Assembly (NCBI GenBank): GCA_044227095.1
Contig: JBGAFV010000001.1
Location: 1,625,127 to 1,689,126, forward strand
Length of the DNA: 64,000 nucleotides
DNA from: Chitinophagaceae bacterium
Lineage (GTDB): Bacteria > Bacteroidota > Bacteroidia > Chitinophagales > Chitinophagaceae
Direction of reading: 5' to 3'
Of the stretch, positions 34,589 through 52,010 are shown piece by piece; position 1 is the stretch's first letter, and every line of letters starts with the position of its first letter. The position numbers and the translations under genes were made by a program. The notes under the pieces were generated by a model, which had not been told where the DNA came from, made no database searches, and saw nothing but the letters and a program-made list of their open reading frames with translations.

Positions 34589-34604
34589 TGTTTTGTTTTT
34601 AATG

Positions 34605-34679
34605 TGGTGCCTTAAGGAATCGAACCTTAATTGCTGGTTCTTCAAACCAGTGCAATAGAACCATCTCTGCCAAAGCACC
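34605..34679 (-). tRNA. tRNA-Phe (GAA)
   Basis: Manual fold: acceptor GGTGCTT/AGGCACC, D-arm GCAG...TTGC, anticodon stem CTGGT/ACCAG with loop TTGAAGA, T-arm TAAGG-TTCGATT-CCTTA, discriminator A. Confidence 0.7.
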
Positions 34680-34684
34680 ATTTT

Positions 34685-34776
34685 GTCTGAACCAGGATTT
34701 TGAAGGATTTTTTGGATTAATAGGATGTACACTTCTCTGCTAAATCTTTTAAATCATTTTAAATCCTGGTTTAGAT
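34685..34776. repeat. ~95-bp palindromic unit immediately 5' of tRNA-Phe (family also at 35110-35204, 35465-35637, 13040-13080)
   Basis: Terminal inverted repeats GTCTGAACCAGGATTTTGAAGGATTT ... AAATCCTGGTTTAGAT. Confidence 0.6.
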
Positions 34777-34876
34777 TTTTTTTGTTATTAACTGTAGTAA
34801 CACTATTAAGCATCGTTGCGTCGCACACTTCAGCTTTTTGTTATTTATTCATCATATCTCCCAATATAGTCTTCTT

Positions 34877-34948
34877 GCGGATGAAGAAAGGTTCGAACTT
34901 TCAACCTGGGGCTTAACAAGCCACTGCTCTGCCATTGAGCTATTCATC
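34877..34948 (-). tRNA. tRNA-Asn (GTT)
   Basis: Manual fold: acceptor GGATGAA/TTCATCC, D-arm GCTC-AATGGCA-GAGC, anticodon loop TTGTTAA (one mismatch in the anticodon stem), T-arm GAAAG-TTCGAAC-CTTTC, discriminator G. Confidence 0.6.
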
Positions 34949-34951
34949 CAT

Positions 34952-35025
34952 GAGTCGCGCAGAAGATTCGAACTTCTTTATTCCGGTTTGCAGCCGGATG
35001 CATACAGCCATGTCTGCCAGCGCGA
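34952..35025 (-). tRNA. tRNA-Cys (GCA), unusual D-arm
   Basis: Acceptor GTCGCGC/GCGCGAC, anticodon stem TCCGG/CCGGA with loop CTGCAAA, T-arm AGAAG-TTCGAAT-CTTCT, discriminator T. The D-region is 21 nt with a non-canonical stem. Confidence 0.55.
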
Positions 35026-35033
35026 CTTTTATT

Positions 35034-35109
35034 GTTGGCCCGGTGAGACTCGAACTCACAACTCCCGGTGTAAAAGACCGGTACTCTGCATCCAATTGAG
35101 TTACGAACC
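35034..35109 (-). tRNA. tRNA-Lys (TTT)
   Basis: Acceptor TGGTTCG/CGGGCCA (two G-U pairs), D-arm ACTC...GAGT, anticodon stem CCGGT/ACCGG with loop CTTTTAC, T-arm GTGAG-TTCGAGT-CTCAC, discriminator A. Confidence 0.65.
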
Positions 35110-35204
35110 AGTGTCTGAACCAGGATTTTGAAGGATTTTTCAGATTAATAAGATGTAAATTTTTCTGACGAATCTTTTTAATCCTTTTAAATCCTGGTTC
35201 AGAT
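35110..35204. repeat. ~95-bp palindromic unit immediately 5' of tRNA-Lys
   Basis: GTGTCTGAACCAGGATTTTGAAGGATTT ... AAATCCTGGTTCAGAT. It is ~85% identical to the 34685-34776 unit. Confidence 0.6.
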
Positions 35205-35211
35205 ATTTTTT

Positions 35212-35306
35212 GTACGACTTTCAGAATCGAACTGAATACGCCAAACTTATGTTTACCTCTCAGAAAGAGCAGGAAGCTTAGCATGTTGCCATTACACCCA
35301 GCCGTA
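35212..35306 (-). ncRNA. 95-nt tRNA-like element with canonical acceptor, D-arm and T-arm but no anticodon stem-loop (tRNA pseudogene or tRNA-mimic RNA)
   Basis: Acceptor TACGGCT/AGTCGTA, D-arm GTGT-AATGGCA-ACAT, T-arm TTCAG-TTCGATT-CTGAA. The 46-nt internal segment contains no 5-bp/7-nt-loop anticodon arm in any register (checked manually). Confidence 0.4.
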
Positions 35307-35309
35307 TTG

Positions 35310-35381
35310 GTTGACTTCGGGACTTGAACCCTGTTCTTCACATTCACAGTGTGACACTTTACCAGTTAAGCTAAAGCCAAC
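35310..35381 (-). tRNA. tRNA-His (GTG)-like, with G-1:C73 and irregular T-arm
   Basis: G-1 + TTGGCTT / AAGTCAA + C73 gives the 8-bp His-type acceptor. D-arm GCTT-AACTGGTA-AAGT, anticodon stem TCACA/TGTGA with loop CTGTGAA. The T-stem has only 3-4 bp (GGG-TTCAAGT-CCC). Confidence 0.5.
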
Positions 35382-35386
35382 GTTTG

Positions 35387-35459
35387 TTGTTAAGGATAGA
35401 TTCGAACTATCATCATCAGTGTCAAAGACTGATATGCTGAGCCATTGCACCACTTAACA
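35387..35459 (-). tRNA. tRNA-Gln (TTG)
   Basis: U1-A72 acceptor TGTTAAG/CTTAACA, D-arm GTGC-AATGGCTCA-GCAT, anticodon stem TCAGT/ACTGA with loop CTTTGAC, T-arm GATAG-TTCGAAT-CTATC. Confidence 0.7.
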
Positions 35460-44678: not shown

Positions 44679-44914
44679 AAAAGTAGTTTTAAAAGTTATT
44701 AGTCATTAAAAATACCCATATGCCTTTGGGTTATCATGCGTAGAACTACGTTAATTAAACGGTGTCAATACGTCTCAATTTCAGTAATACCAGCCTAGCA
44801 GGAGAAATTTTAAAACTTCAATTTTGAAAAAGCATAGCAGCACTACGTTTGCTGATGTGTTTTAAACCCAACAACTGGCAGAAGGCCTGTAACTTTTTCT
44901 ACAAACTTTTAAAT

Positions 44915-45193
44915 TTCTTTTTTATGAGACAGCAACCTGCTACAGCAACACAAAGAATTAGTGTAAAAGAAACAACACCAGATTATCTCCGTACGTTGGT
45001 AAAACCAGTTTTGGCAGATTCTGTTGAAGTAAAAGAATTGTATTATAAAGAACGCATCCAATCGTTTAAAAGCATGCTTGATCATCTCAATCTGCTGGAA
45101 GATGCCTCGGAAATAGAATTTCTTTGCCGTGAAATTGTAGAGGGCAGGGCCATATTAATTAAACTTGCTGCGCAGAAAAGATATTCAGCCTGA
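44915..45193 (+). CDS. hypothetical protein
   Basis: ORF from MRQQPATA, no domain recognised, followed by a strong terminator. Confidence 0.35.
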   Translation, partial: FFFMRQQPATATQRISVKETTPDYLRTLVKPVLADSVEVKELYYKERIQSFKSMLDHLNLLEDASEIEFLCREIVEGRAILIKLAAQKRYSA

Positions 45194-45257
45194 TTAAATA
45201 TTCCGTTACCAGTTTTAAACATACTGTACTTACTATGATACTTGTTGGTCTTACACA

Positions 45258-45293
45258 AATACGCCCCGTTTTTTAAACGGGGCGTATTTTTTA
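45258..45293. terminator. bidirectional intrinsic terminator
   Basis: AAATACGCCCCGTTTttttAAACGGGGCGTATTTTTT. Confidence 0.7.
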
Positions 45294-45308
45294 TTATAGG
45301 AACTAACA

Positions 45309-46022
45309 TTAAAAACTAATTGACGGCATTTCGTCGTAAGTTCTTCCGCCTAACTCACGTCCTGCTTTCTTTTTATTTATGCCGCCCCATTGTTTAAAGA
45401 AAAAAGCAACACCTTGTTCGGAACATTGCTGGCGAATGTCCCAAACCCACCACTCTTGCATGGGTCTGGCTTTACGTCCACTTTCACCGCCAGTAATTAC
45501 CCAATCAATATTTTCAAGGTTCATGTTCATTAAAGGGCCTATCAGTGGTTCACAGGAAAGAAATTTTGTTTTGGCATTAGTCTTTCTCAAAAAATCAATT
45601 CTTCCTGCCACCCTTTGGTCTTCAACGGAAACACCCATCCATATGTTCTTAGTCCATGTAAGTTGTTCATGTAATTCAAAAAGTCGTTCTGCTCTTTTAG
45701 TTAATACCTGGTAAGTATGCTGTGGCGTATCATTCATCACTGCAAATACTTTTTTGATAAACTCCAGAGGAACCTCGGGATGAAATAAATCACTCATAGA
45801 ATTTACAAAAACAATTTTTGAACCTTTCCAACCATAAGGAATATCTATTGCATCATCATGCGTCCTTACAGCAAAACCATCTTTGTATTTTTCTATTCCC
45901 ATTGCTTCAAGACGCCGTGTCATTACTTCGGCATAACAATACTTACAACCTGCAGATATTTTAGAGCAGCCTGTTGTAGGATTCCAGGTCATTTCGGTCC
46001 ATTCTATGGAAGATTGTGACAT
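45309..46022 (-). CDS. phage Gp37/Gp68-family (DUF5131) three-Cys-motif protein
   Basis: N-terminus MSQSSIEWTEMTWNPTTGCSKISAGCKYCYAE is the Cx6CxxC three-Cys motif characteristic of PF07505. Confidence 0.65.
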   Translation of the reverse strand: MSQSSIEWTEMTWNPTTGCSKISAGCKYCYAEVMTRRLEAMGIEKYKDGFAVRTHDDAIDIPYGWKGSKIVFVNSMSDLFHPEVPLEFIKKVFAVMNDTPQHTYQVLTKRAERLFELHEQLTWTKNIWMGVSVEDQRVAGRIDFLRKTNAKTKFLSCEPLIGPLMNMNLENIDWVITGGESGRKARPMQEWWVWDIRQQCSEQGVAFFFKQWGGINKKKAGRELGGRTYDEMPSISF

Positions 46023-46024
46023 GA

Positions 46025-46303
46025 TTATTTAATTTTAATTTCAGAAGCGTTTTTAATTTTATGAATATCGGAACCTGTGAGTTTGAAATCTATAATTATT
46101 TTCCCTTCTTTATTTAAGTCCTTTAGAATGGTATTTGCATCTTTTAATAAAAACCCTTCTGATAAAGTGAATAAGTAAACTTCCACATCAGTTTTTAAAT
46201 TTCTGTTTAATATATCTTCTTTTAAAGTATTAGTGAATACCTGCTTTTGTTGGAACATTATATTCCTCAAAAAAACTTGGTTGATTAATATTGATTTTTT
46301 CAT
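46025..46303 (-). CDS. small hypothetical ORF between the TcmP-like and Gp37/Gp68 genes
   Basis: It ends 3 nt before the Gp37/Gp68 start and overlaps the 3' end of the upstream gene. Coding status is uncertain. Confidence 0.25.
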   Translation of the reverse strand: MKKSILINQVFLRNIMFQQKQVFTNTLKEDILNRNLKTDVEVYLFTLSEGFLLKDANTILKDLNKEGKIIIDFKLTGSDIHKIKNASEIKIK

Positions 46304-47108
46304 TGTCTATATCGAAATTTGCTTCGCCTGTTAATTTGTCGTGTTTCCAGCATACATGTAGAAATTTTTCAATTCCCAATGTGTGATTTGTTCCAAAAAT
46401 TAAACCATAAATACCACTAGGTTTTTTTATTGAAAATGGAGCTAAGAAATAGCTCTTTCGATCAGCTATTTTTGATCTATAGTAGTCTAAAACAAACCTA
46501 TGAATATGATAATAACTTTTTCCTTCTAGATCCTGCTTGTTGATTTTCAAATATTTTTTAAACTCCTCAACTTCCGAGAATCTTTTTATGTAAGACGATG
46601 AGATGAAGAATAAAAAATCTGTTTGCTTTAAACTAATTAATTTACTAAATACCTCTTCAGTTATTTGTTTTATGCCATTCTGGTCTAAGAATAAAAAATT
46701 AGCTGTTCTTTTCATTGTATCAAAATACTTATTGAATATTACTATGAAATCATCATTGTAGTATTCAATAACATATAGTGAATTGTCTGCAATTGAATTC
46801 AAATTATCAGTAAGTATGGTAAATTTATCACTGTCAAATTCATTGATTACTATTCGAATTTTTACTCTACTTTTTTTAATCAATTCTTTATTTTCATTGA
46901 GGATTGATATAATTCGCATAGGGCTACCGAAAGTGCCGTTAATATCTTTGCCTTCTCCAGCAAATAAGTCAAAAATTTGAATTTCAGACCATATGATTTC
47001 CTTTCTTGCAATAAATACCGGTAGCCATTCCTTAAAATAGTCTTCAAAAATTTTAAGTTTATCAATAGTCCCGTCATCAAACGGTTTTCGGAATAGGTTT
47101 CTTCCCAT
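46230..47108 (-). CDS. putative three-Cys-motif partner protein (TcmP-like)
   Basis: 292-aa product immediately upstream of the Gp37/Gp68-family gene, which is the conserved pairing. The call is by context and size only, since no diagnostic motif could be verified by eye. Confidence 0.4.
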   Translation of the reverse strand: MGRNLFRKPFDDGTIDKLKIFEDYFKEWLPVFIARKEIIWSEIQIFDLFAGEGKDINGTFGSPMRIISILNENKELIKKSRVKIRIVINEFDSDKFTILTDNLNSIADNSLYVIEYYNDDFIVIFNKYFDTMKRTANFLFLDQNGIKQITEEVFSKLISLKQTDFLFFISSSYIKRFSEVEEFKKYLKINKQDLEGKSYYHIHRFVLDYYRSKIADRKSYFLAPFSIKKPSGIYGLIFGTNHTLGIEKFLHVCWKHDKLTGEANFDIDNEKININQPSFFEEYNVPTKAGIH

Positions 47109-47150
47109 GGCAAGGTTTATAAGTTTATGCTAAGATAGAAACAATGTCCC

Positions 47151-48260
47151 TTAAAACAACTTCCCCTGCCCGCCCGGCACCCTGAATATGCTTGTATTCA
47201 AACTCCAGTCTTCTGCATTCATACCATAGAGCTTGCCGTATTTTTTATACTGCTGTGCTACCATTTGCGCAATATTCCCTTCACCCCGCATGCGTACGCC
47301 CCAGCGGGTATCGTTTACTTTTCCATCATGACTTTGTTCTATTAAATGCCACACCTTATCTGCACGGTCTGGAAAATTTTTATACAGCCAATCGTGAAAC
47401 AGTAATTTAATAGCACCATTTAAACGGATAAATGTATAAGCGGTAAACGTAGCACCATTATCTCGTGCGGCTTTCATAATGCGCTGCATCTCGTGTTCGT
47501 TTAGTCCGGGAATCATTGGCCCCATCATAATACCCATACGCACACCAGCATTGCTTAGTTCTTCAATTACTTTTAATTTTTGCTTTGCGGTAGTAGTGCG
47601 TGGCTCCATAACCCTGCGCAGATCTTCATTAAAAGAAGTAATAGATACCATGGCAGATACCAGTCGCTTCTTTGCCATTTCCTGCAATACATCTTTGTCT
47701 TTTAGTATCCAAGAGTTTTTAGTGAGTATGCCTACAGGCTGATTAAATTCGTTGCAAACTTCCAGCAGGCCTCTTGTAAGCCGGTATTTCTGTTCTGCAG
47801 GCTGGTAACAATCTGTGTTGCCGCTAAGCATTATAGGATAGCATTCATACTTCGGGTGCATCAGGTATTTGCGCAATAGCTGTGGTGCATTTTTTTTCAC
47901 TATTATTTTTTGCTCAAAATCCATTCCTGCACTGTAGCCCCAGTACTCGTGCACATTGCGTGCATAGCAATAAATGCAGCCATGCTCACAACCGGCGTAT
48001 GGGTTCATGCTAAAGCCCATGCCAACATCAGGGCTTTCTACTTTGTTTACTATCGTTTTAGATTCCTGTTCTATGTATTGTGTAGGCAATGCTGTTTCTT
48101 CCCATTCGTCAATGCCTTCAATATGTTCTTTTGTTACTTCGGTTTTTAAAAAACGGTTGCGTGTGTTTATTTGAGCGCCGCGGCCAGCATGGTATTGGGT
48201 TTGTTCGTCCTGGTTTTTTACAGCTACTTTATAGTGGTCTTGTTGCAGTTTGTCTGACAT
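47151..48260 (-). CDS. radical SAM protein, SplB-like DNA-repair-photolyase (PA0069) family
   Basis: CEHGCIYCYA is the CxxxCxxC motif with the family architecture. The start is at MSDKLQQD. Confidence 0.8.
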   Translation of the reverse strand: MSDKLQQDHYKVAVKNQDEQTQYHAGRGAQINTRNRFLKTEVTKEHIEGIDEWEETALPTQYIEQESKTIVNKVESPDVGMGFSMNPYAGCEHGCIYCYARNVHEYWGYSAGMDFEQKIIVKKNAPQLLRKYLMHPKYECYPIMLSGNTDCYQPAEQKYRLTRGLLEVCNEFNQPVGILTKNSWILKDKDVLQEMAKKRLVSAMVSITSFNEDLRRVMEPRTTTAKQKLKVIEELSNAGVRMGIMMGPMIPGLNEHEMQRIMKAARDNGATFTAYTFIRLNGAIKLLFHDWLYKNFPDRADKVWHLIEQSHDGKVNDTRWGVRMRGEGNIAQMVAQQYKKYGKLYGMNAEDWSLNTSIFRVPGGQGKLF

Positions 48261-48285
48261 GATTTCTAATTTTTTGTTTTTACAA

Positions 48286-48856
48286 CCACGGAGACAGGGA
48301 GGACACAAAGATGCACAGCGATTTTTTATACAGACCCGGAGGGGAGAAAAGTACACGGAGTTAGCATTAATTGAAGATCATTCGTTTGATTCCATCTTTC
48401 ATTAATGGAGTATGAAAGTTTAAAATATAGCCTAGGCGCTTGCCTGTTAATCTTAAATAACTTAATAATTGCGCTTCCCAAAGAATACAATAATCTTCCT
48501 GGGCTTTTAATTCAATAATAATTAAGTTGTCTATAAGAATACCAACCCGCAATCCACCTTCTATTATCATTGTTTCATAAACTATATTCACGCACTTTTG
48601 TTTTTCAAAAGGGATATTTCTTTTAGCCAGTTCGTAACAAAAACATTTCTCATAAATGCTTTCCAATAAACCAGCGCCTAATTTTTTGTGAACTGTAATG
48701 GCAATGTTTACAATTTGTCCTGTTAACCATCTTTCTCTTTCAGTAATAGGTTTAAAACCATTTTGCTGAATTTCATTTGTATCAGTTTTTAGCGTCATTT
48801 TCTAATAAAGTTTTATCATCTCCCTTTGCATCTTTGTGTCCTCTCTGTCTCTGTGG
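48286..48856. mobile_element. GxxExxY-gene cassette bounded by ~30-bp inverted repeats
   Basis: 48286-48315 CCACGGAGACAGGGAGGACACAAAGATGCA versus the reverse complement of 48827-48856, CCACAGAGACAGAGAGGACACAAAGATGCA (27/30 identical). A related fragment is at 50150-50190. Confidence 0.5.
48367..48798 (-). CDS. GxxExxY-family (PDDEXK_3-like) protein
   Basis: GAGLLESIYEKC contains GxxExxY. ~140 aa, which is typical of this family. Confidence 0.7.
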   Translation of the reverse strand: MTLKTDTNEIQQNGFKPITERERWLTGQIVNIAITVHKKLGAGLLESIYEKCFCYELAKRNIPFEKQKCVNIVYETMIIEGGLRVGILIDNLIIIELKAQEDYCILWEAQLLSYLRLTGKRLGYILNFHTPLMKDGIKRMIFN

Positions 48857-48864
48857 TTATGTCT

Positions 48865-49476
48865 TCACCCAAATAACTCACCCTGCTTTGTACTCACCGG
48901 CAAATTCATAAATTCAAAACGCCTTAATATCTGGTAAGGATTATCGCCCACCTGCCTTCTTAGCAAAAGCATACTGTCTGCAATAAAGCGACCGGTAAAA
49001 TGTTTCTGGCTGTATTCCAACCAGCCTTTTTCATATTGCCAGGGCAGCAGTTTACGTGCTACAGTAAGGTGCGGCTCGTCTATAAAATGTGGTTTGTTGT
49101 CTTTGTTCAGTTTCATTAACTGTTGAAAAGGGCGCATTTCTTTTACCAGGTTGCGTATAGGATCTTTGGTAGTTACATTTATAAAAATGGTGTGCGATGG
49201 AAAGCTGCCAAAATCTTTTAGTTCTACTTTAAAAGGATGATAGCCCATACCCACCGTTTTTAAGCGGTTAATAATGCGTTCTTCCATCATTGCGTACTGT
49301 AGAAAATTAACCAGTGTAATATGCGGCTTCCCCCAGCGGGCATTAGGTGCTTTATACGTTTCGTAAAAATCTTCTTTTACTTCTTTTATTTTATTGCGCA
49401 ATTCCTCATGCGGGTTTAGTACAAGCAGGTATTCATTTATTTTATAGCCGGGCAACGTAAGCGCTGATGGTTTCAT
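48865..49476 (-). CDS. 2H phosphoesterase superfamily protein (LigT-like RNA 2',3'-cyclic phosphodiesterase / 2'-5' RNA ligase family)
   Basis: Two H-x-T-x motifs (PHITLV and PHLTVA) spaced as in LigT. Confidence 0.6.
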   Translation of the reverse strand: MKPSALTLPGYKINEYLLVLNPHEELRNKIKEVKEDFYETYKAPNARWGKPHITLVNFLQYAMMEERIINRLKTVGMGYHPFKVELKDFGSFPSHTIFINVTTKDPIRNLVKEMRPFQQLMKLNKDNKPHFIDEPHLTVARKLLPWQYEKGWLEYSQKHFTGRFIADSMLLLRRQVGDNPYQILRRFEFMNLPVSTKQGELFG

Positions 49477-49521
49477 AACTGTATTTTTTTATTTCATTAA
49501 AAATTGTCATTGATTAAATAT

Positions 49522-49550
49522 TTAGTATAAATTTACTAAATAATTTAGTA
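49522..49550. promoter_or_regulatory. candidate operator: palindrome TTAGTA-N6-TACTAA plus a third TTAGTA half-site in the divergent LigT/umuD promoter
   Basis: TTAGTATAAATTTACTAAATAATTTAGTA, located 70-100 nt upstream of umuD. Confidence 0.3.
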
Positions 49551-49620
49551 TTTCAAAAAATAATTTTTCACCTTCTTTTTGGCATCATTAGCGACGCCTG
49601 AATGAAATAAAAACTATACT

Positions 49621-50055
49621 ATGGATGGAGAAATGTTTTACGGGGCCGCTTATAAAGGCTCTAAACAATACGGACAGCAAAATATAAGAACTGCCGATGC
49701 AACAGGCTTTGGTGCCGCTGCCGACGATTATGCAGAACGCGGCATTGATTTAAATGAACAACTGGTGCGCAACAAACCCGCTACATTTTTTATGCGTGTA
49801 CGCGGTGATGCCATGATTGGCGCCGGCATACACGATGGCGATATTGTAATTGTAGACAGATCATTAAAAGTTGCAAGCGGCAAAGTGGTAATTGCTATTT
49901 TAAATGGAGAAATGCTAATCCGAAGACTGGAAAAAACATTCAACAAAATTCGGTTGCTGCCAGAAACCAATAAACTATCGCCAATAGAGGTGGATACATC
50001 CAGTACTGAGTTTGCTATTTGGGGAATAGTAACTTATGTCATTCATACTGTATAA
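49621..50055 (+). CDS. umuD: UmuD-like S24 peptidase (LexA-like autoprotease)
   Basis: RVRGDAMIGAGIHDGDIVIVDRSLKVASGKVVIA contains the Ser-Lys dyad region (GDAM...K). Confidence 0.75.
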   Translation: MDGEMFYGAAYKGSKQYGQQNIRTADATGFGAAADDYAERGIDLNEQLVRNKPATFFMRVRGDAMIGAGIHDGDIVIVDRSLKVASGKVVIAILNGEMLIRRLEKTFNKIRLLPETNKLSPIEVDTSSTEFAIWGIVTYVIHTV

Positions 50056-50266
50056 AGAAGCGAGCAATATTTTTTTAGCCAAACAGTTGCGCACTATTCA
50101 GCATTGTTGCGTCGCACACTTGTACAGTATATCAGCAGGCGAGTTTTTTTGAACCACAGCGACACAGAAAACACAGAGAAGCACGGAGCTTTGATCAACG
50201 CATTGTATCATATAAGCAAATGCTATGTGCTTATATTTTTCTATGATTCTATGTGGTAAATAATTT

Positions 50267-51562
50267 TTGTACAGATTTATGAAAGCCATTATTGATTGCA
50301 ATAGTTTTTATTGTTCTGCAGAACGGGTGTTCCGCCCCGATTTGTTGAGTAAACCTGTTGTTGTACTAAGCAATAATGATGGTTGTATAATTTCCCGCAG
50401 CGATGAAGCAAAAGCTTTTGGCGTAGGCATGGCCGGTCCTTATTTTATGGCAAAGCCATTAATAGATAAACATGGTATTGAAGCTTTTTCTTCCAATTAT
50501 AATTTATATGGCGATATGAGCATGCGGGTAATGGATACTTTGCGTGCACTTTCTCCTTCGCCATCACTGGTAGAAGTATATTCTGTTGATGAAGCTTTTA
50601 TGGATCTCAGCCATATTAGTGCAAAAGATCTTCCTGAGTTTAGCAAGCATATAAAAGAAACAGTAGAGCAATGGACAGGTATTTCTGTTTCGGTTGGTGT
50701 GGCGCCTACAAAAACGCTGGCTAAGCTGGCCAATAATCTTGCTAAAAAAAATAAAAAAGAAAGCAATTGCGTGTACGTTATTGCTACTGAAGAAGAGCAG
50801 CGCATTGCATTGCAGCAAACCCGTGTTGGCAATATATGGGGTGTGGGTGGTGCATATGCAAACAAGTTGCTGAACCTTGGCATCATCAGCGCCTGGGAGC
50901 TACGCAATATGAGCGAAGAATGGGCACATAAACATTTAGGTGGCGTGGTAGGCGTACGCCTTATAAAAGAATTGCGGGGAGAGCCGTGTATAGAAATGAA
51001 AGATCCGCTGGAAACAAAAAAGATGATTGCTACTACGCGGATGTTTGGCGATCCTGTAAGTGATATAACTTCTATAAAAGAAGCAGTGGCTACTTATACT
51101 TCACGGGCGGCAGAAAAATTGCGCAGACAGTATAGTGCTGCTACTATGGTGAGTGTGTTTATTGTGGCAAAAGAACAAAACCATAATATAGATTTCAGGC
51201 ATGGGCCAAATATTGGCACTTATACTACATTGCCTGCTGCCACTTCTATTACCAATGAATTGATAAAGCCAGCCGTAAAGCTAATAGATCGGTTATACGA
51301 GCCCGGTACCTGGTATAAAAAAGCCGGTGTTATGCTTAGCGGACTTGTGCCCGATGCTTCTGTACAGGCCAATATGTTTTTACCTGATGTGAAAAATAGC
51401 GGCCGAAAGCTAATGGGCATGATAGACAATGTAAACTTTAGCATGCGTGATGATGTATTGAAGTTTGCAGCTTCTGGTACCACCCGCGACTGGAAAATGC
51501 GCCAGGAACTGCGCAGTCCACGCTATACCACACGTTGGGATGAATTGTATGAAGTGAAATAA
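50267..51562 (+). CDS. umuC: Y-family translesion DNA polymerase (UmuC-like)
   Basis: N-terminus IIDCNSFYCSAERVFRPDL...VVVLSNNDGC, the palm/fingers signature of UmuC/DinB. Confidence 0.85.
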   Translation: MYRFMKAIIDCNSFYCSAERVFRPDLLSKPVVVLSNNDGCIISRSDEAKAFGVGMAGPYFMAKPLIDKHGIEAFSSNYNLYGDMSMRVMDTLRALSPSPSLVEVYSVDEAFMDLSHISAKDLPEFSKHIKETVEQWTGISVSVGVAPTKTLAKLANNLAKKNKKESNCVYVIATEEEQRIALQQTRVGNIWGVGGAYANKLLNLGIISAWELRNMSEEWAHKHLGGVVGVRLIKELRGEPCIEMKDPLETKKMIATTRMFGDPVSDITSIKEAVATYTSRAAEKLRRQYSAATMVSVFIVAKEQNHNIDFRHGPNIGTYTTLPAATSITNELIKPAVKLIDRLYEPGTWYKKAGVMLSGLVPDASVQANMFLPDVKNSGRKLMGMIDNVNFSMRDDVLKFAASGTTRDWKMRQELRSPRYTTRWDELYEVK

Positions 51563-51576
51563 TTTTTAGAAGACAT

Positions 51577-52010
51577 GGAACGCAGATTTTTATGATTGTT
51601 ATGATTGACGCGGATTGCATTTATAATCTGCGCATTTGCGGCTAATTTTTATAGTTTCACGCAAAGGACGCAACAAAGCAGCGAACGCAAAGAAAAACTC
51701 CTTAAACTCTGTGAAAAAACTCACACAACTCTGTGGTAAATTAAATTGTCGCGCAGGGCTAGCAGAGTAAAAGAGGTAATCTGCGCATTTGCGGCTAATT
51801 TTTATAGTTTCACGCAAAGGACGCAACAAAGCAGCGAACGCAAAGAAAAACTCCTTAAGCTCTGTAAAAAAACTCATACGACTCTATGGTAAATTAAATT
51901 GTCGCGTAGATCTAGCAGAGTAAAAAAGGTAATCTGCGCATCTGCGGCTAAGATCATTTTCCGCAAAAAAATCATAGCTAATCAGCTTAATCCTAAGAAT
52001 CTGTGTTCCA
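51577..52010. repeat. tandem array (2 x ~145 bp plus flanking modules) of the modular intergenic repeat family
   Basis: Unit AATCTGCGCATTTGCGGCTAATTTTTATAGTTTCACGCAAAGGACGCAACAAAGCAGCGAACGCAAAGAAAAACTCCTTAAACTCTGTGAAAAAACTCACACAACTCTGTGGTAAATTAAATTGTCGCG... repeated at 51638 and 51778. Bounded by GGAACGCAGATTTTTATGATT and ATCCTAAGAATCTGTGTTCC. Confidence 0.7.

What the first reader, a model, noticed from the sequence alone, without database searches (positions are those of the whole stretch)
45309..51562. DNA-damage/modification island: Gp37/Gp68 three-Cys protein, TcmP-like partner, SplB-like radical-SAM, GxxExxY cassette, 2H phosphoesterase and umuDC
The PF07505 three-Cys protein (Cx6CxxC at its N-terminus) is adjacent to a ~290-aa partner, which is the 'TcmP' pairing of unknown function. 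It is immediately followed by a PA0069/SplB-like radical-SAM DNA-repair-photolyase homologue. Beyond that, an inverted-repeat-bounded GxxExxY gene is inserted between that rSAM gene and a LigT-like 2H phosphoesterase. Diverging from LigT are umuD-umuC, with a palindromic candidate operator (TTAGTA-N6-TACTAA, 49522-49539, plus a third half-site) between them. Co-localising these poorly characterised nucleic-acid enzymes with SOS translesion polymerase genes suggests a co-regulated damage-response or anti-phage DNA-processing module. A tiny ORF (46025-46303) is wedged between TcmP-like and Gp37/Gp68 with a 3-nt spacing.
Basis: partly seen in the sequence, partly recalled or inferred. Interest (0 to 1): 0.65.

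Follow-up and report, generated by a model that had tools for sequence, protein, structure and literature searches.

The report
SOS repair operon with TcmP–DUF5131 add-on
This is a DNA-damage (SOS) gene cluster of a Chitinophagaceae bacterium, controlled by an already published operator, and it carries at its tail an uncharacterised, widely mobile pair of SAM-type enzymes (TcmP and DUF5131), so a DNA-damage experiment could give a first handle on what that pair does.

Summary
The core is ordinary: umuD-umuC diverges from a 2H phosphoesterase and a PA0069 ('SplB-like') radical-SAM gene, across the published Bacteroidetes LexA-type box CTAA-N5-TTAG. This box is the only copy in the 64 kb window, and it sits in the same intergenic region in 68 of 68 related loci. 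The working site is TACTAA-N5-TTAGTA (49534-49550), and the extra half-site is the remnant of a second tandem box.

The 'tiny ORF' is not a gene. It is the C-terminal winged-helix of TcmP, cut off by a 2-nt deletion in an A-run, and the same allele occurs on five contigs. GxxExxY is a variable insert, present in 21 of 61 loci.

TcmP-DUF5131 equals the untested PADLOC candidates PDC-M30/M41. It lies between the rSAM stop codon and the operon terminator, in 15 of 63 species and in all 8 sampled close homologues. DUF5131 is conserved there, while the partner gene is swapped and low in GC. TcmP has a methyltransferase fold. DUF5131 shares the SplB cluster motif and occurs fused to TcmP or to ParB.

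The SOS wiring is well supported. The function of the pair is still inferred.

The parts
45257..45289 (.). Perfect 15-bp-stem hairpin that acts as a two-way terminator. It ends the minus-strand operon after DUF5131, and also ends the convergent ORF 44849-45193.
   Evidence: terminator scan; sequence. A similarly placed hairpin with a related stem follows the rSAM gene directly in L001, which lacks the pair, and follows DUF5131 in L003.
45309..46022 (-). DUF5131 / 'phage Gp37/Gp68' protein, 237 aa. It is related to radical-SAM enzymes and has invariant C19-x6-C26-x2-C29.
46025..46303 (-). C-terminal winged-helix (GMT-wHTH) part of TcmP, now in the +1 frame. It is not an independent gene.
   Evidence: It matches positions 286-364 of the 368-position PDC-M30A profile. 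PF22560 scores 25.4 bits. It aligns with the C-termini of intact 361-aa orthologues.
46245..46248 (-). Frameshift site: an A4 run where intact orthologues have A6 (a 2-nt deletion).
   Evidence: DNA alignment with L081 and L082. The identical 292-aa product is found on 5 contigs, including an independent Logan assembly.
46230..47108 (-). TcmP core, 292 aa. It has a class I SAM-methyltransferase fold, with motif I DLFAGEG and motif IV LDQNG. It is truncated before the wHTH.
   Evidence: TIGR04474, 141.8 bits against a cutoff of 53. PDC-M30A profile positions 1-292, E 1e-114. AF2 model of orthologue P0007, pLDDT 86. Foldseek against PDB: methyltransferases 3lpm, HNMT, Trm1 and Trm5a, E from 4e-6. 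Motif counts. GC 28.6% against 38.4% for the window.
47151..48260 (-). PA0069-family ('SplB-like', COG1533) radical-SAM protein, 369 aa, with CxxxCxxC in GCEHGCIYCYA.
   Evidence: NF033668, 471 bits against a cutoff of 360. Orthologues are 84-95% identical in 80 Chitinophagaceae loci. The family is listed as a member of the CTAA-N5-TTAG regulon in PMC8565304.
48284..48321 (.). Arm of the inverted repeat on the rSAM side of the GxxExxY insert.
   Evidence: 38 nt, 89% complementary, 499 nt between the arms.
48367..48798 (-). GxxExxY / PD-(D/E)XK_3 protein, 143 aa. It is a variable insert between the 2H phosphoesterase and rSAM genes.
   Evidence: TIGR04256, 121.5 bits; PF13366, 117.4 bits. It is present at this position in 21 of 61 related loci. 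GC 30.8%.
48821..48858 (.). Arm of the inverted repeat on the LigT side of the GxxExxY insert.
   Evidence: Long flanking repeats are found only here and in L001, out of 28 loci with the insert.
48865..49476 (-). 2H phosphoesterase (LigT-like superfamily member), 203 aa. It is the first gene of the minus-strand unit.
   Evidence: PF13563, 62.8 bits. TIGR02258 scores only 42 against a cutoff of 65.7. It lies directly upstream of the rSAM gene in 60 of 61 loci.
49516..49567 (.). Conserved promoter/operator block of about 52 nt, shared by the two divergent units.
   Evidence: Anchored alignment of 69 sequences, with information content per position. It contains TTTG - 18/19 nt - TAAATTTA, which I read as Bacteroidetes -33/-7-like elements. 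That reading is my inference.
49534..49550 (.). SOS box TACTAA-N5-TTAGTA. Its core, CTAA-N5-TTAG, is at 49536-49548.
   Evidence: It is the only exact match in the 64 kb window. The motif was published and shown by EMSA for the non-canonical LexA of Bacteroidetes (PMC8565304). It is present in the same intergenic region in 68 of 68 loci and in the rearranged locus L091.
49513..49525 (.). Degenerate second box, ATTA-N5-TTAG (2 mismatches), 23 nt from the first.
   Evidence: The consensus has a second conserved CTAA 23 nt after the first. Some loci have 2-3 exact tandem boxes. Tandem boxes 21-22 nt apart are listed in the paper's supplement.
49621..50055 (+). UmuD homologue, 144 aa, with Ala and Arg at the positions of the catalytic Ser60 and Lys97 of E. 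coli UmuD.
   Evidence: NF007621, 130.9 bits against a cutoff of 110. BLASTP against the E. coli UmuD sequence. Motif counts across loci.
50267..51562 (+). UmuC-type Y-family polymerase, 431 aa.
   Evidence: PF00817, PF11799 and PF13438. NF002955 scores 373 bits, below its curated cutoff of 431.

Best explanation
The region is a divergent SOS unit of a Chitinophagaceae chromosome. One conserved promoter/operator block (49516-49567) carries the CTAA-N5-TTAG box of the Bacteroidetes non-canonical LexA, plus a degenerate second box. From it, umuD-umuC runs one way. The other way runs 2H phosphoesterase, then a GxxExxY insert, then the PA0069/SplB-like radical-SAM gene, then tcmP, then DUF5131, ending at the hairpin 45257-45289.

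Shown:
- the family memberships;
- the box and its conservation;
- the conserved core gene order;
- that the TcmP-DUF5131 pair sits between the rSAM stop codon and the operon's terminator hairpin;
- that the pair is present in only about a quarter of related species;
- that the partner gene is exchanged while DUF5131 stays;
- that TcmP here has lost its winged-helix through a 2-nt deletion.

Inferred:
- Repression by the LexA-type protein and release after DNA damage.
- Co-transcription of the pair with the repair genes.
- That the pair acts on DNA. In this reading TcmP, a SAM-methyltransferase-fold protein that usually carries a wHTH, finds or binds the target. DUF5131, a relative of SplB-type radical-SAM enzymes, does the Fe-S/SAM chemistry.

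My leaning is that in this family the pair serves as a damage-induced accessory that processes or modifies DNA. It would have been captured from mobile elements, where it works on its own, rather than being a constitutive defence system. In this genome it may be partly disabled, or reduced to the short, wHTH-less form that exists naturally elsewhere.
For: Family scores.

Operator:
- The motif was published with EMSA and regulon data, and the regulon includes splB/PA0069 (PMC8565304).
- There is one exact match in the window, and it lies in the 144-nt umuD/LigT spacer. About 1.5 matches are expected by chance over the whole 64 kb.
- The box is in the same place in 68 of 68 loci, inside a conserved block of about 52 nt, and also in the rearranged locus L091.

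Core synteny: LigT directly upstream of the rSAM gene in 60 of 61 loci, and a divergent umuD within 3 kb in 60 of 61.

The pair lies inside the operon:
- Only 42 nt separate the rSAM stop from the tcmP start, with no terminator-like site between them.
- A similarly placed hairpin with a related stem ends the unit whether the pair is present or absent.
- The indel spans about 45203-47152 when compared with L001 and L002.

Recurrence:
- 15 of 63 species-representative loci.
- All 8 sampled close homologues lie in the same array. Sometimes other genes that the paper counts as SOS-regulated are interposed: SRAP, or the UDG-linked rSAM plus DUF4130.
- In L091 the rSAM gene, the partner and DUF5131 have moved together to the umuDC side.

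DNA as the target:
- TcmP has a methyltransferase fold plus a wHTH.
- Its motifs are DxFAGxG and DP[YWF]G or DQNG.
- DUF5131 occurs fused to TcmP (P0316) and to ParB_N+HTH_ParB (P0358, P0385).
- The DUF5131 Cys motif aligns with that of the SplB-like protein. [quoted passage not shown]

Frameshift.
Against: - No expression data exist, so co-transcription and damage induction are inferred from layout and from the conserved box only.
- The cognate regulator gene is not in the window; there is no second S24 peptidase.
- The pair is self-sufficient elsewhere. None of 80 viral loci has an SplB-like, LigT or UmuC gene nearby.
- A plasmid copy in Hymenobacter, whose DUF5131 is 70% identical, has no exact box upstream.
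- PADLOC lists the pair as a defence candidate.
- The low GC of TcmP (26-32% in every locus examined), its replacement between close relatives, and the patchy presence of the pair all fit a selfish or defence cassette at least as well as a repair function.
- Pairwise identities of DUF5131 and the rSAM protein are uncorrelated (rho 0.05), so vertical co-inheritance is not shown.
- Fold matches of DUF5131 to radical-SAM enzymes are no better than those to generic TIM barrels. The Cys region of the model has low confidence.
Confidence: 0.7

Rival explanations
1. TcmP-DUF5131 is an autonomous anti-phage defence (or anti-restriction DNA-modification) cassette. It merely landed in a permissive spot at the 3' end of the SOS operon, and its function has nothing to do with DNA damage or with the SplB-like enzyme.
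For: - Both proteins match the PADLOC candidates PDC-M30 (window) or PDC-M41 (L003, L089, L091, L173).
- Those candidates were defined by being embedded in BREX, DISARM or type I R-M loci.
- The pair occurs on mobile elements: 178 phage records and 439 plasmids have DUF5131. It lies between the integrase and the immunity repressor in Gordonia phage Angelique, next to an integrase and an IS4 on a Hymenobacter plasmid, and near Abi, TIR and HNH genes in Leptospira.
- TcmP is next to the Hna defence gene in S. meliloti.
- The partner is hypervariable and low in GC.
- The pair is present in only 24% of species.
- Other small mobile genes also land in this array: GxxExxY, and an IS200-type Y1_Tnp.
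Against: - All 8 sampled close homologues, and all 15 species loci, have the pair in the same orientation and upstream of the operon terminator. None was seen elsewhere.
- The pair stays at the end of the array when other SOS genes are interposed or when the array is rearranged.
- No anti-phage test of PDC-M30 or PDC-M41 was found in the literature searches.
Confidence: 0.3
2. DUF5131 (with TcmP) is a third radical-SAM DNA-repair enzyme of the SOS array. It would repair a specific lesion, alongside or downstream of the SplB-like enzyme, with TcmP acting as a base-flipping lesion or target recogniser.
For: - The array collects radical-SAM proteins with DNA-repair annotations: PA0069, TIGR03916 with its partner, and DUF5131.
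- DUF5131 shares the NP..GC..GC.YCYA cluster motif with the SplB-like protein, and the two are neighbouring groups in RadicalSAM.org.
- NCBIfam defines an analogous 'radical SAM mobile pair' of a DUF5131-like and an SplB-like protein.
- DUF5131 is conserved: 73-90% identity here, and 50-57% to the phage copies.
Against: - A repair recogniser would not be expected to be swapped for partners that share only 11-39% identity, or for unrelated proteins (L018, L025, L076).
- Three quarters of related species do without it.
- In phages it occurs without any SplB-like gene.
- The window's proteins fall far below the cutoffs of the 'mobile pair' models: 83 against 355, and 90 against 410.
Confidence: 0.3
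3. In this particular genome the pair is a decaying remnant. The frameshift has inactivated TcmP, so the cassette does nothing here.
For: - There is a 2-nt deletion relative to the 361-aa orthologues, which are up to 84% identical.
- The allele is real, being found on 5 contigs.
- Close relatives L001 and L002 have lost the pair, or never had it.
Against: - The whole TIGR04474 core (residues 14-257) is intact.
- Natural short TcmPs of about 280 aa lack the wHTH.
- DUF5131 is intact and 90% identical to its closest relatives.
- The wHTH frame stays open for 92 codons and could be made separately.
Confidence: 0.35
4. The co-location is chance adjacency of unrelated genes, and the palindrome is an AT-rich accident.
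For: One exact CTAA-N5-TTAG match in 64 kb is within chance expectation for the window as a whole (mean 1.52).
Against: - The match lies in the 144-nt spacer upstream of umuD. It is conserved in 68 of 68 loci, inside a block of about 52 nt.
- The gene order is conserved in 60 of 61 loci.
- The motif has experimental support in the phylum.
Confidence: 0.03

Closest known systems
SOS regulon of the Bacteroidetes non-canonical LexA, CTAA-N5-TTAG class (Sanchez-Osuna et al. 2021, PMC8565304)
   Same: The same box sequence lies upstream of umuDC. PA0069/splB is in the regulon, tandem boxes about 21-23 nt apart occur, and Chitinophagaceae are named as a family with large regulons.
   Different: The paper text and the supplements I searched do not mention a 2H phosphoesterase (COG1514) or PF07505. 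Here the 2H gene leads the SplB-like operon in 60 of 61 loci, and TcmP-DUF5131 closes it in about a quarter of them. The regulator gene itself is outside the window.
TcmP / three-Cys-motif protein pair (NCBIfam TIGR04474 with Pfam PF07505), equal to PADLOC candidates PDC-M30 and PDC-M41
   Same: Both proteins pass the models. They are adjacent and on the same strand, as in other genomes, phages and plasmids.
   Different: Here the pair is embedded inside an SOS repair operon rather than in a mobile element or defence island, and TcmP is split by a frameshift. No function has been shown for the family.
Radical SAM mobile pair A/B (TIGR04471 and TIGR04470)
   Same: It is a DUF5131-like protein next to an SplB-like radical-SAM protein. 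The window's two proteins hit these models at E 2e-23 and 2e-25. An example lies on a Bacteroides plasmid.
   Different: The scores are far below the curated cutoffs: 83 against 355, and 90 against 410. Here a TcmP gene lies between the two, and the SplB-like gene is a conserved chromosomal SOS gene, not a mobile one.
Spore photoproduct lyase and the COG1533 'DNA repair photolyase' radical-SAM proteins
   Different: Neither protein was shown to be an SPL. No SPL model was hit, and the substrates are unknown.
E. coli umuDC (DNA polymerase V)
   Same: The gene pair, the S24 fold and Y-family polymerase domains, and the SOS control are shared.
   Different: The UmuD homologue has Ala and Arg at the catalytic Ser and Lys positions, so RecA-stimulated self-cleavage is unlikely. 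UmuC scores below the NF002955 cutoff.

Membership tests
Bacteroidetes non-canonical-LexA SOS regulon (CTAA-N5-TTAG class) | An exact CTAA-N5-TTAG palindrome in the promoter region of the regulated operon | tested here: met
   49536-49548 is the only match in the window. The box is present in 68 of 68 related loci.
Bacteroidetes non-canonical-LexA SOS regulon (CTAA-N5-TTAG class) | Core regulon genes (umuDC, splB/PA0069) attached to the box | tested here: met
.
Bacteroidetes non-canonical-LexA SOS regulon (CTAA-N5-TTAG class) | A cognate HTH+S24 repressor in the genome that binds the box | not testable with these tools
   No second S24 protein is in the 64 kb window, and the rest of the genome is not available.
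Bacteroidetes non-canonical-LexA SOS regulon (CTAA-N5-TTAG class) | Induction by DNA damage | not testable with these tools
   This needs expression data.
TcmP (TIGR04474) | Score above the curated cutoff | tested here: met
   141.8 bits against a cutoff of 53, covering residues 14-257.
TcmP (TIGR04474) | Adjacent to a PF07505 three-Cys protein | tested here: met
   DUF5131 starts 2 nt after the end of the TcmP reading frames.
TcmP, long form (PADLOC PDC-M30A, about 361-370 aa with wHTH) | One continuous polypeptide that includes the C-terminal wHTH | tested here: not met
   A 2-nt deletion splits it into a 292-aa product and a separate wHTH frame.
DUF5131 / PF07505 | Pfam gathering score and the three-Cys motif | tested here: met
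   332.8 bits against a cutoff of 28.9. C19, C26 and C29 are invariant in A3.
Radical SAM superfamily (for DUF5131) | A [4Fe-4S]-binding Cys triad homologous to CxxxCxxC on a partial TIM barrel | tested here: inconclusive
   hhalign gives E 7e-5 over 22 columns at the motif. The model is a beta/alpha barrel, but the Cys loop has pLDDT below 50. Radical-SAM enzymes score no better than generic barrels. RadicalSAM.org lists DUF5131 as a subgroup.
Radical SAM superfamily (for DUF5131) | Reductive cleavage of SAM | not testable with these tools
   This needs biochemistry.
PADLOC PDC-M30 (candidate defence system) | Both component HMMs matched and the genes adjacent | tested here: met
   Component A at E 1e-114 and component B at E 5e-124.
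PADLOC PDC-M30 (candidate defence system) | Protection against phage | not tested
   The source describes the PDC systems as untested, and no later test was found.
PA0069 family radical SAM (NF033668) | Curated cutoff and CxxxCxxC | tested here: met
   471 bits against a cutoff of 360. The motif GCEHGCIYC is in the translation.
RNA 2',3'-cyclic phosphodiesterase ThpR/LigT (TIGR02258) | Curated equivalog cutoff | tested here: not met
   42 bits against a cutoff of 65.7. It is a member of the 2H superfamily (PF13563, 62.8 against 27; two HxT motifs) but not LigT in the strict sense.
GxxExxY (TIGR04256 / PF13366) | Curated cutoffs | tested here: met
   121.5 bits against a cutoff of 35, and 117.4 against 22.
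UmuD (self-cleaving S24 subunit of Pol V) | Model score | tested here: met
   NF007621, 130.9 bits against a cutoff of 110.
UmuD (self-cleaving S24 subunit of Pol V) | The catalytic Ser/Lys dyad | tested here: not met
   GDAM and IRRL stand where E. coli has GDSM and VKKL. Ala is at this position in 54 of 77 loci. The E. coli sequence was typed from my own knowledge.
Radical SAM mobile pair A/B (TIGR04471/TIGR04470) | Curated equivalog cutoffs | tested here: not met
   83 bits against a cutoff of 355, and 89.8 against 410.

The most novel reading that the evidence does not exclude
TcmP-DUF5131 would be a damage-induced system that acts on DNA. It would have a conserved radical-SAM-type catalytic subunit and an exchangeable methyltransferase-fold subunit that sets the target. 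It would be spread by phages and plasmids, and in Chitinophagaceae it would be hard-wired into the LexA-controlled repair operon. This would give a first function to a family of about 38,000 sequence clusters. It would also add a new chemistry, either to the SOS response or, if it targets foreign DNA, to SOS-triggered defence.
Probability: 0.3. Interest if true: 0.7.

Novelty: new member of a known kind. Interest (0 to 1): 0.45.

Why it matters
DUF5131 is a very large protein family with no known function. It has 38,380 clusters at 50% identity with E <= 1e-3. It is found in 178 phage records and on 439 plasmids. I found no functional study of it.

In one bacterial family it is consistently placed inside a LexA-type SOS repair operon, downstream of other radical-SAM repair genes. 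That turns 'unknown' into a concrete experiment: damage induction, a junction RT-PCR, knock-out phenotypes, and nucleoside analysis, all in a culturable host. The same data would show whether PADLOC's PDC-M30/M41 candidates are defence, repair or DNA-modification systems.

The rest of the locus is already explained: umuDC, PA0069 and the operator.

Tried and rejected
- Sequence searches of PDB with DUF5131 (single sequence and profile) and with TcmP found nothing meaningful.
- A test of vertical co-inheritance, using the correlation of pairwise identities, was uninformative: rSAM against DUF5131 rho 0.05, and rSAM against UmuC only 0.24.
- I looked for an SOS box upstream of a plasmid-borne tcmP in Hymenobacter. 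There were only 1-mismatch hits, at chance frequency.
- I looked for an SplB-like rSAM, LigT or UmuC gene next to DUF5131 in 80 viral loci and found none. One locus had a weak match to UmuD.
- I tested whether the inverted repeat around GxxExxY is a conserved element end. It is found only in the window and in L001, out of 28 loci. The arm occurs nowhere else in the window.
- Rfam found nothing in 43-53 kb. No tRNA lies near the cluster.
- Literature searches for DUF5131, TcmP, PF07505, Gp37Gp68, GxxExxY, PF22560 and PDC-M30 returned only listings, with no functional work.
- I rejected the frameshift being an assembly error, because the same truncated product is on 5 contigs.
- I rejected the GTG start at 48356 for the rSAM gene. 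The family model starts at residue 58, orthologues align from the ATG at 48260, and the extension would overlap the repeat arm.

Full report
**What is in the sequence**

All the following lie on the minus strand.
- DUF5131/PF07505 at 45309-46022 scores 332.8 bits.
- A 292-aa protein at 46230-47108 passes the TcmP model TIGR04474 (141.8 bits against a cutoff of 53).
- A PA0069-family radical-SAM protein scores 471 bits on NF033668 against a cutoff of 360.
- A GxxExxY protein is at 48367-48798.
- A 2H phosphoesterase is at 48865-49476.

On the plus strand are umuD (49621-50055) and umuC (50267-51562).

The rSAM gene starts at the ATG at 48260, not at the GTG at 48356 of the mechanical ORF call. 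The family model begins at residue 58, orthologues align from that ATG, and the extension would run into a repeat arm. The GxxExxY gene is bounded by a 38-nt, 89% complementary inverted repeat at 48284-48321 and 48821-48858. The window comes from a Chitinophagaceae genome. The rSAM protein has orthologues of 84-95% identity in 80 species-representative loci of that family.

**The operator**

However, the SOS box of the non-canonical LexA of Bacteroidetes has been published as CTAA-N5-TTAG. [quoted passage not shown]

- The window holds exactly one such site, at 49536-49548.
- One match in 64 kb is what chance gives (mean 1.52), but its position is not chance. The box lies in the umuD/LigT spacer in 68 of 68 related loci that have both genes.
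- It sits inside a conserved block of about 52 nt, aAAAataatTTTtgtaaaaCTAAaTaaTTTAGTAAATTtaTgCTAAaaaAaT.
- The block also holds TTTG, a spacer of 18-19 nt and TAAATTTA. I read these as the -33/-7 elements of Bacteroidetes promoters. This is an inference from established knowledge of that promoter type. Because TAAATTTA is its own reverse complement, the direction cannot be read from the sequence.
- A second conserved CTAA lies 23 nt after the first. In some loci it is part of a second or third exact box. In the window it is degenerate (ATTA-N5-TTAG, 49513-49525).
- The paper's supplement lists tandem boxes 21-22 nt apart, including upstream of the PA0069 gene of Chitinophaga caeni.

**Conserved core and variable parts**

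Among species-representative loci with enough flanking sequence, 60 of 61 have the 2H phosphoesterase directly upstream of the rSAM gene on the same strand, and 60 of 61 have a divergent umuD within 3 kb. This core is therefore a conserved divergent SOS unit.

Two parts are variable.
- GxxExxY lies between the 2H and rSAM genes in 21 of 61 loci. Long flanking repeats are seen only in the window and in L001. In some relatives a GxxExxY gene or an IS200-type transposase gene sits between umuD and umuC.
- DUF5131 lies within 4 kb downstream of the rSAM gene, on the same strand, in 15 of 63 species loci.

**How the pair is placed**

- Compared with L001 and L002, which are 95% and 92% identical in the rSAM protein, the window has an extra segment of about 1.95 kb (roughly 45203-47152). 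It begins right after the rSAM stop codon.
- Only 42 nt separate the rSAM stop from the tcmP start, and there is no terminator-like site there.
- DUF5131 is followed by a perfect 15-bp-stem hairpin at 45257-45289.
- A similarly placed hairpin with a related stem follows the rSAM gene directly in L001, and follows DUF5131 in L003. The pair therefore lies upstream of the operon's terminator.
- Between the window and L003, DUF5131 and everything downstream are collinear (74% nt identity; DUF5131 protein 89%). The partner segment cannot be aligned at all, at 17% protein identity.
- Across loci the partner is one of three things. It can be a TcmP of about 370 aa with a wHTH (PADLOC PDC-M30A). It can be a TcmP of about 280 aa without one (PDC-M41A). 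In three loci it is a protein that matches nothing.
- TcmP has 26-32% GC in every locus examined, against 36-44% for its neighbours.

I then sampled close homologues from the large protein collection: six DUF5131 clusters and two TcmP clusters on long contigs. All eight lie in the same array.
- In L174 an SRAP gene lies between the rSAM gene and tcmP.
- In L175 and L066 the UDG-linked radical-SAM gene and its DUF4130/TIGR03915 partner are interposed.
- In L089 the same two genes lie just downstream of the pair. The paper counts SRAP and the UDG-linked system as SOS-regulated.
- In L091 the array is rearranged so that the rSAM gene, the partner and DUF5131 follow umuDC. The box is still in the spacer.

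**The tiny ORF**

The 92-codon ORF 46025-46303 matches positions 286-364 of the 368-position PDC-M30A profile. The 292-aa ORF matches positions 1-292. Intact orthologues are 361-362 aa, up to 84% identical, and carry the PF22560 wHTH. A DNA alignment shows a 2-nt gap in an A-run: A6 in L081 and L082, A4 at window 46245-46248.

The exact truncated product is recorded on five contigs, including an independent assembly of run SRR28480385. The mutation is therefore real and not an assembly error. The whole TIGR04474 core is retained, and natural short TcmPs lack the wHTH, so loss of function is possible but not certain.

**What the two proteins are**

TcmP:
- An AlphaFold model of the intact orthologue P0007 (pLDDT 86) has a class I SAM-methyltransferase fold followed by a winged helix.
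- The best PDB matches are methyltransferases: 3lpm, histamine methyltransferase, Trm1 and Trm5a, with E from 4e-6.
- The family has DxFAGxG as motif I and DP[Y/W/F]G as motif IV. The window's subfamily has DQNG at motif IV.

DUF5131:
- It is unusually conserved, at 50-57% identity between this bacterium and Gordonia or cyanobacterial phages. C19, C26 and C29 are invariant.
- A profile comparison aligns mTWNPttGCtkisAGCkyCYA with FSMNPYAGCE---HGCIYCYA of the neighbouring SplB-like protein (E 7e-5, 22 columns).
- NCBIfam's 'radical SAM mobile pair protein A' model is hit at E 2e-23, far below its cutoff.

Distribution and fusions:
- The family has 38,380 clusters at 50% identity with E <= 1e-3.
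- Among the representatives are a DUF5131-TcmP fusion (P0316) and ParB_N+HTH_ParB-DUF5131 fusions (P0358, P0385). These point to joint action of the two proteins and to DNA as the target.
- DUF5131 is in 178 phage records and on 439 plasmids.
- TcmP is adjacent in 38 of 79 viral loci in which a DUF5131 ORF was found, in three different arrangements.
- None of the 80 viral loci has an SplB-like, LigT or UmuC gene.
- In Gordonia phage Angelique the pair lies between the integrase and the immunity repressor.

**Explanation and rivals**

The best-supported reading is a LexA-type controlled divergent SOS unit, whose minus-strand operon has taken up two kinds of insert. The regulation and the co-transcription are inferred from the conserved box, the gene order, the short spacers and the shared terminator. 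They are not shown by expression data.

For the pair, I commit to a function that acts on DNA and uses SAM. In this family it would be expressed with the damage response. Whether it serves repair, DNA modification or defence is open.
- For defence or selfish modification: the PADLOC listing (an untested candidate), carriage on mobile elements, partner exchange, low GC and patchy presence.
- For a damage-linked role: the invariable position and orientation inside arrays of SOS repair genes, and the kinship with SplB-type enzymes.

Chance adjacency is excluded.

**Comparison with what is known, and novelty**

The operator, umuDC and PA0069 are already described for this phylum. The TcmP/three-Cys pair is catalogued by NCBIfam and PADLOC but has no known function, and I found no paper that studies it.

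What I did not find described is the following.
- The 2H phosphoesterase leads the SplB-like operon.
- TcmP-DUF5131 is recurrently embedded at the end of that operon, with a constant DUF5131 and an exchangeable partner.

This is a new member and a new context of known kinds, not a new kind of system. Its value is that it makes the function of a very large unknown family testable.

**Seen in passing**

The UmuD homologue has Ala and Arg where E. coli UmuD has the catalytic Ser60 and Lys97 (the E. coli sequence is from my own knowledge). Ala is found at this position in 54 of 77 loci.

Noticed in passing
window 49621-50055 (+): The UmuD homologue has GDAM and IRRL where E. coli UmuD has GDSM (Ser60) and VKKL (Lys97). 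Ala is at the Ser position in 54 of 77 Chitinophagaceae loci, while 10 keep GNSM. This suggests a UmuD that does not cleave itself.
   Followed up: partly
window 51624-51951: A tandem repeat of 153 bp, 2.1 copies, 94% matching, lies immediately downstream of umuC. It produces spurious repeated ORFs on the minus strand (51599-51877).
   Followed up: partly
P0316, P0358, P0385, P0343, P0361 (representative library): DUF5131 occurs fused to TcmP (P0316, 558 aa) and to ParB_N + HTH_ParB domains (P0358 and P0385 N-terminal; P0343 and P0361 have weaker, below-cutoff ParB-like matches at the C-terminal end). Other long forms (P0275, 736 aa; P0321, 711 aa) have unassigned extensions.
   Followed up: partly
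L018:11146-12090, L025:11205-12044, L076:11149-12072: In three loci the gene between the rSAM gene and DUF5131 is not a TcmP. It matches no NCBIfam or PADLOC model and not my own TcmP profile. These are further, unrecognised partners of DUF5131.
   Followed up: partly
L066:2587-4594, L089:8629-10682, L175:2859-4874, L174:3888-4679: Other genes that the paper counts as SOS-regulated lie in the same array, either between the SplB-like gene and the pair or just after it. They are TIGR03916 radical SAM with TIGR03915/DUF4130, and SRAP.
   Followed up: partly
L001-L004, L011, L029-L031, L053, L089, L090, L174, L175 (upstream of the LigT orthologue): Many relatives have two tandem 2H phosphoesterase genes, the second only 26-48% identical to the window's. 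The window has one.
   Followed up: no
L003:6920-7273, L004:6849-7217, L083:4834-5277: Small mobile-type genes are also inserted between umuD and umuC in relatives: GxxExxY in L003 and L004, and an IS200-type Y1 transposase in L083. The SOS unit seems to attract such inserts.
   Followed up: no
window 44849-45193 (+): A 114-aa ORF with no family match is conserved (56-64% identity) at the same position in L001-L004, L027 and L033. It converges on the shared hairpin terminator.
   Followed up: no
L173:3994-5106: In one metagenome contig the SplB-like gene is called as two fragments (115 and 166 aa), while the PDC-M41-type pair downstream is intact. This is either decay of the rSAM gene or an assembly error.
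   Followed up: no
window 34604-35459 (-): A cluster of six tRNA genes (Phe, Asn, Cys, Lys, His, Gln). It is unrelated to the finding and about 10 kb away.
   Followed up: no
L084 (Gordonia phage Angelique, 32816-34668 of MH651167.1): The phage gene annotated 'methyltransferase' (gp43) is a TcmP (125 bits). It converges on the DUF5131 gene gp42, inside the integrase/immunity-repressor cassette.
   Followed up: partly
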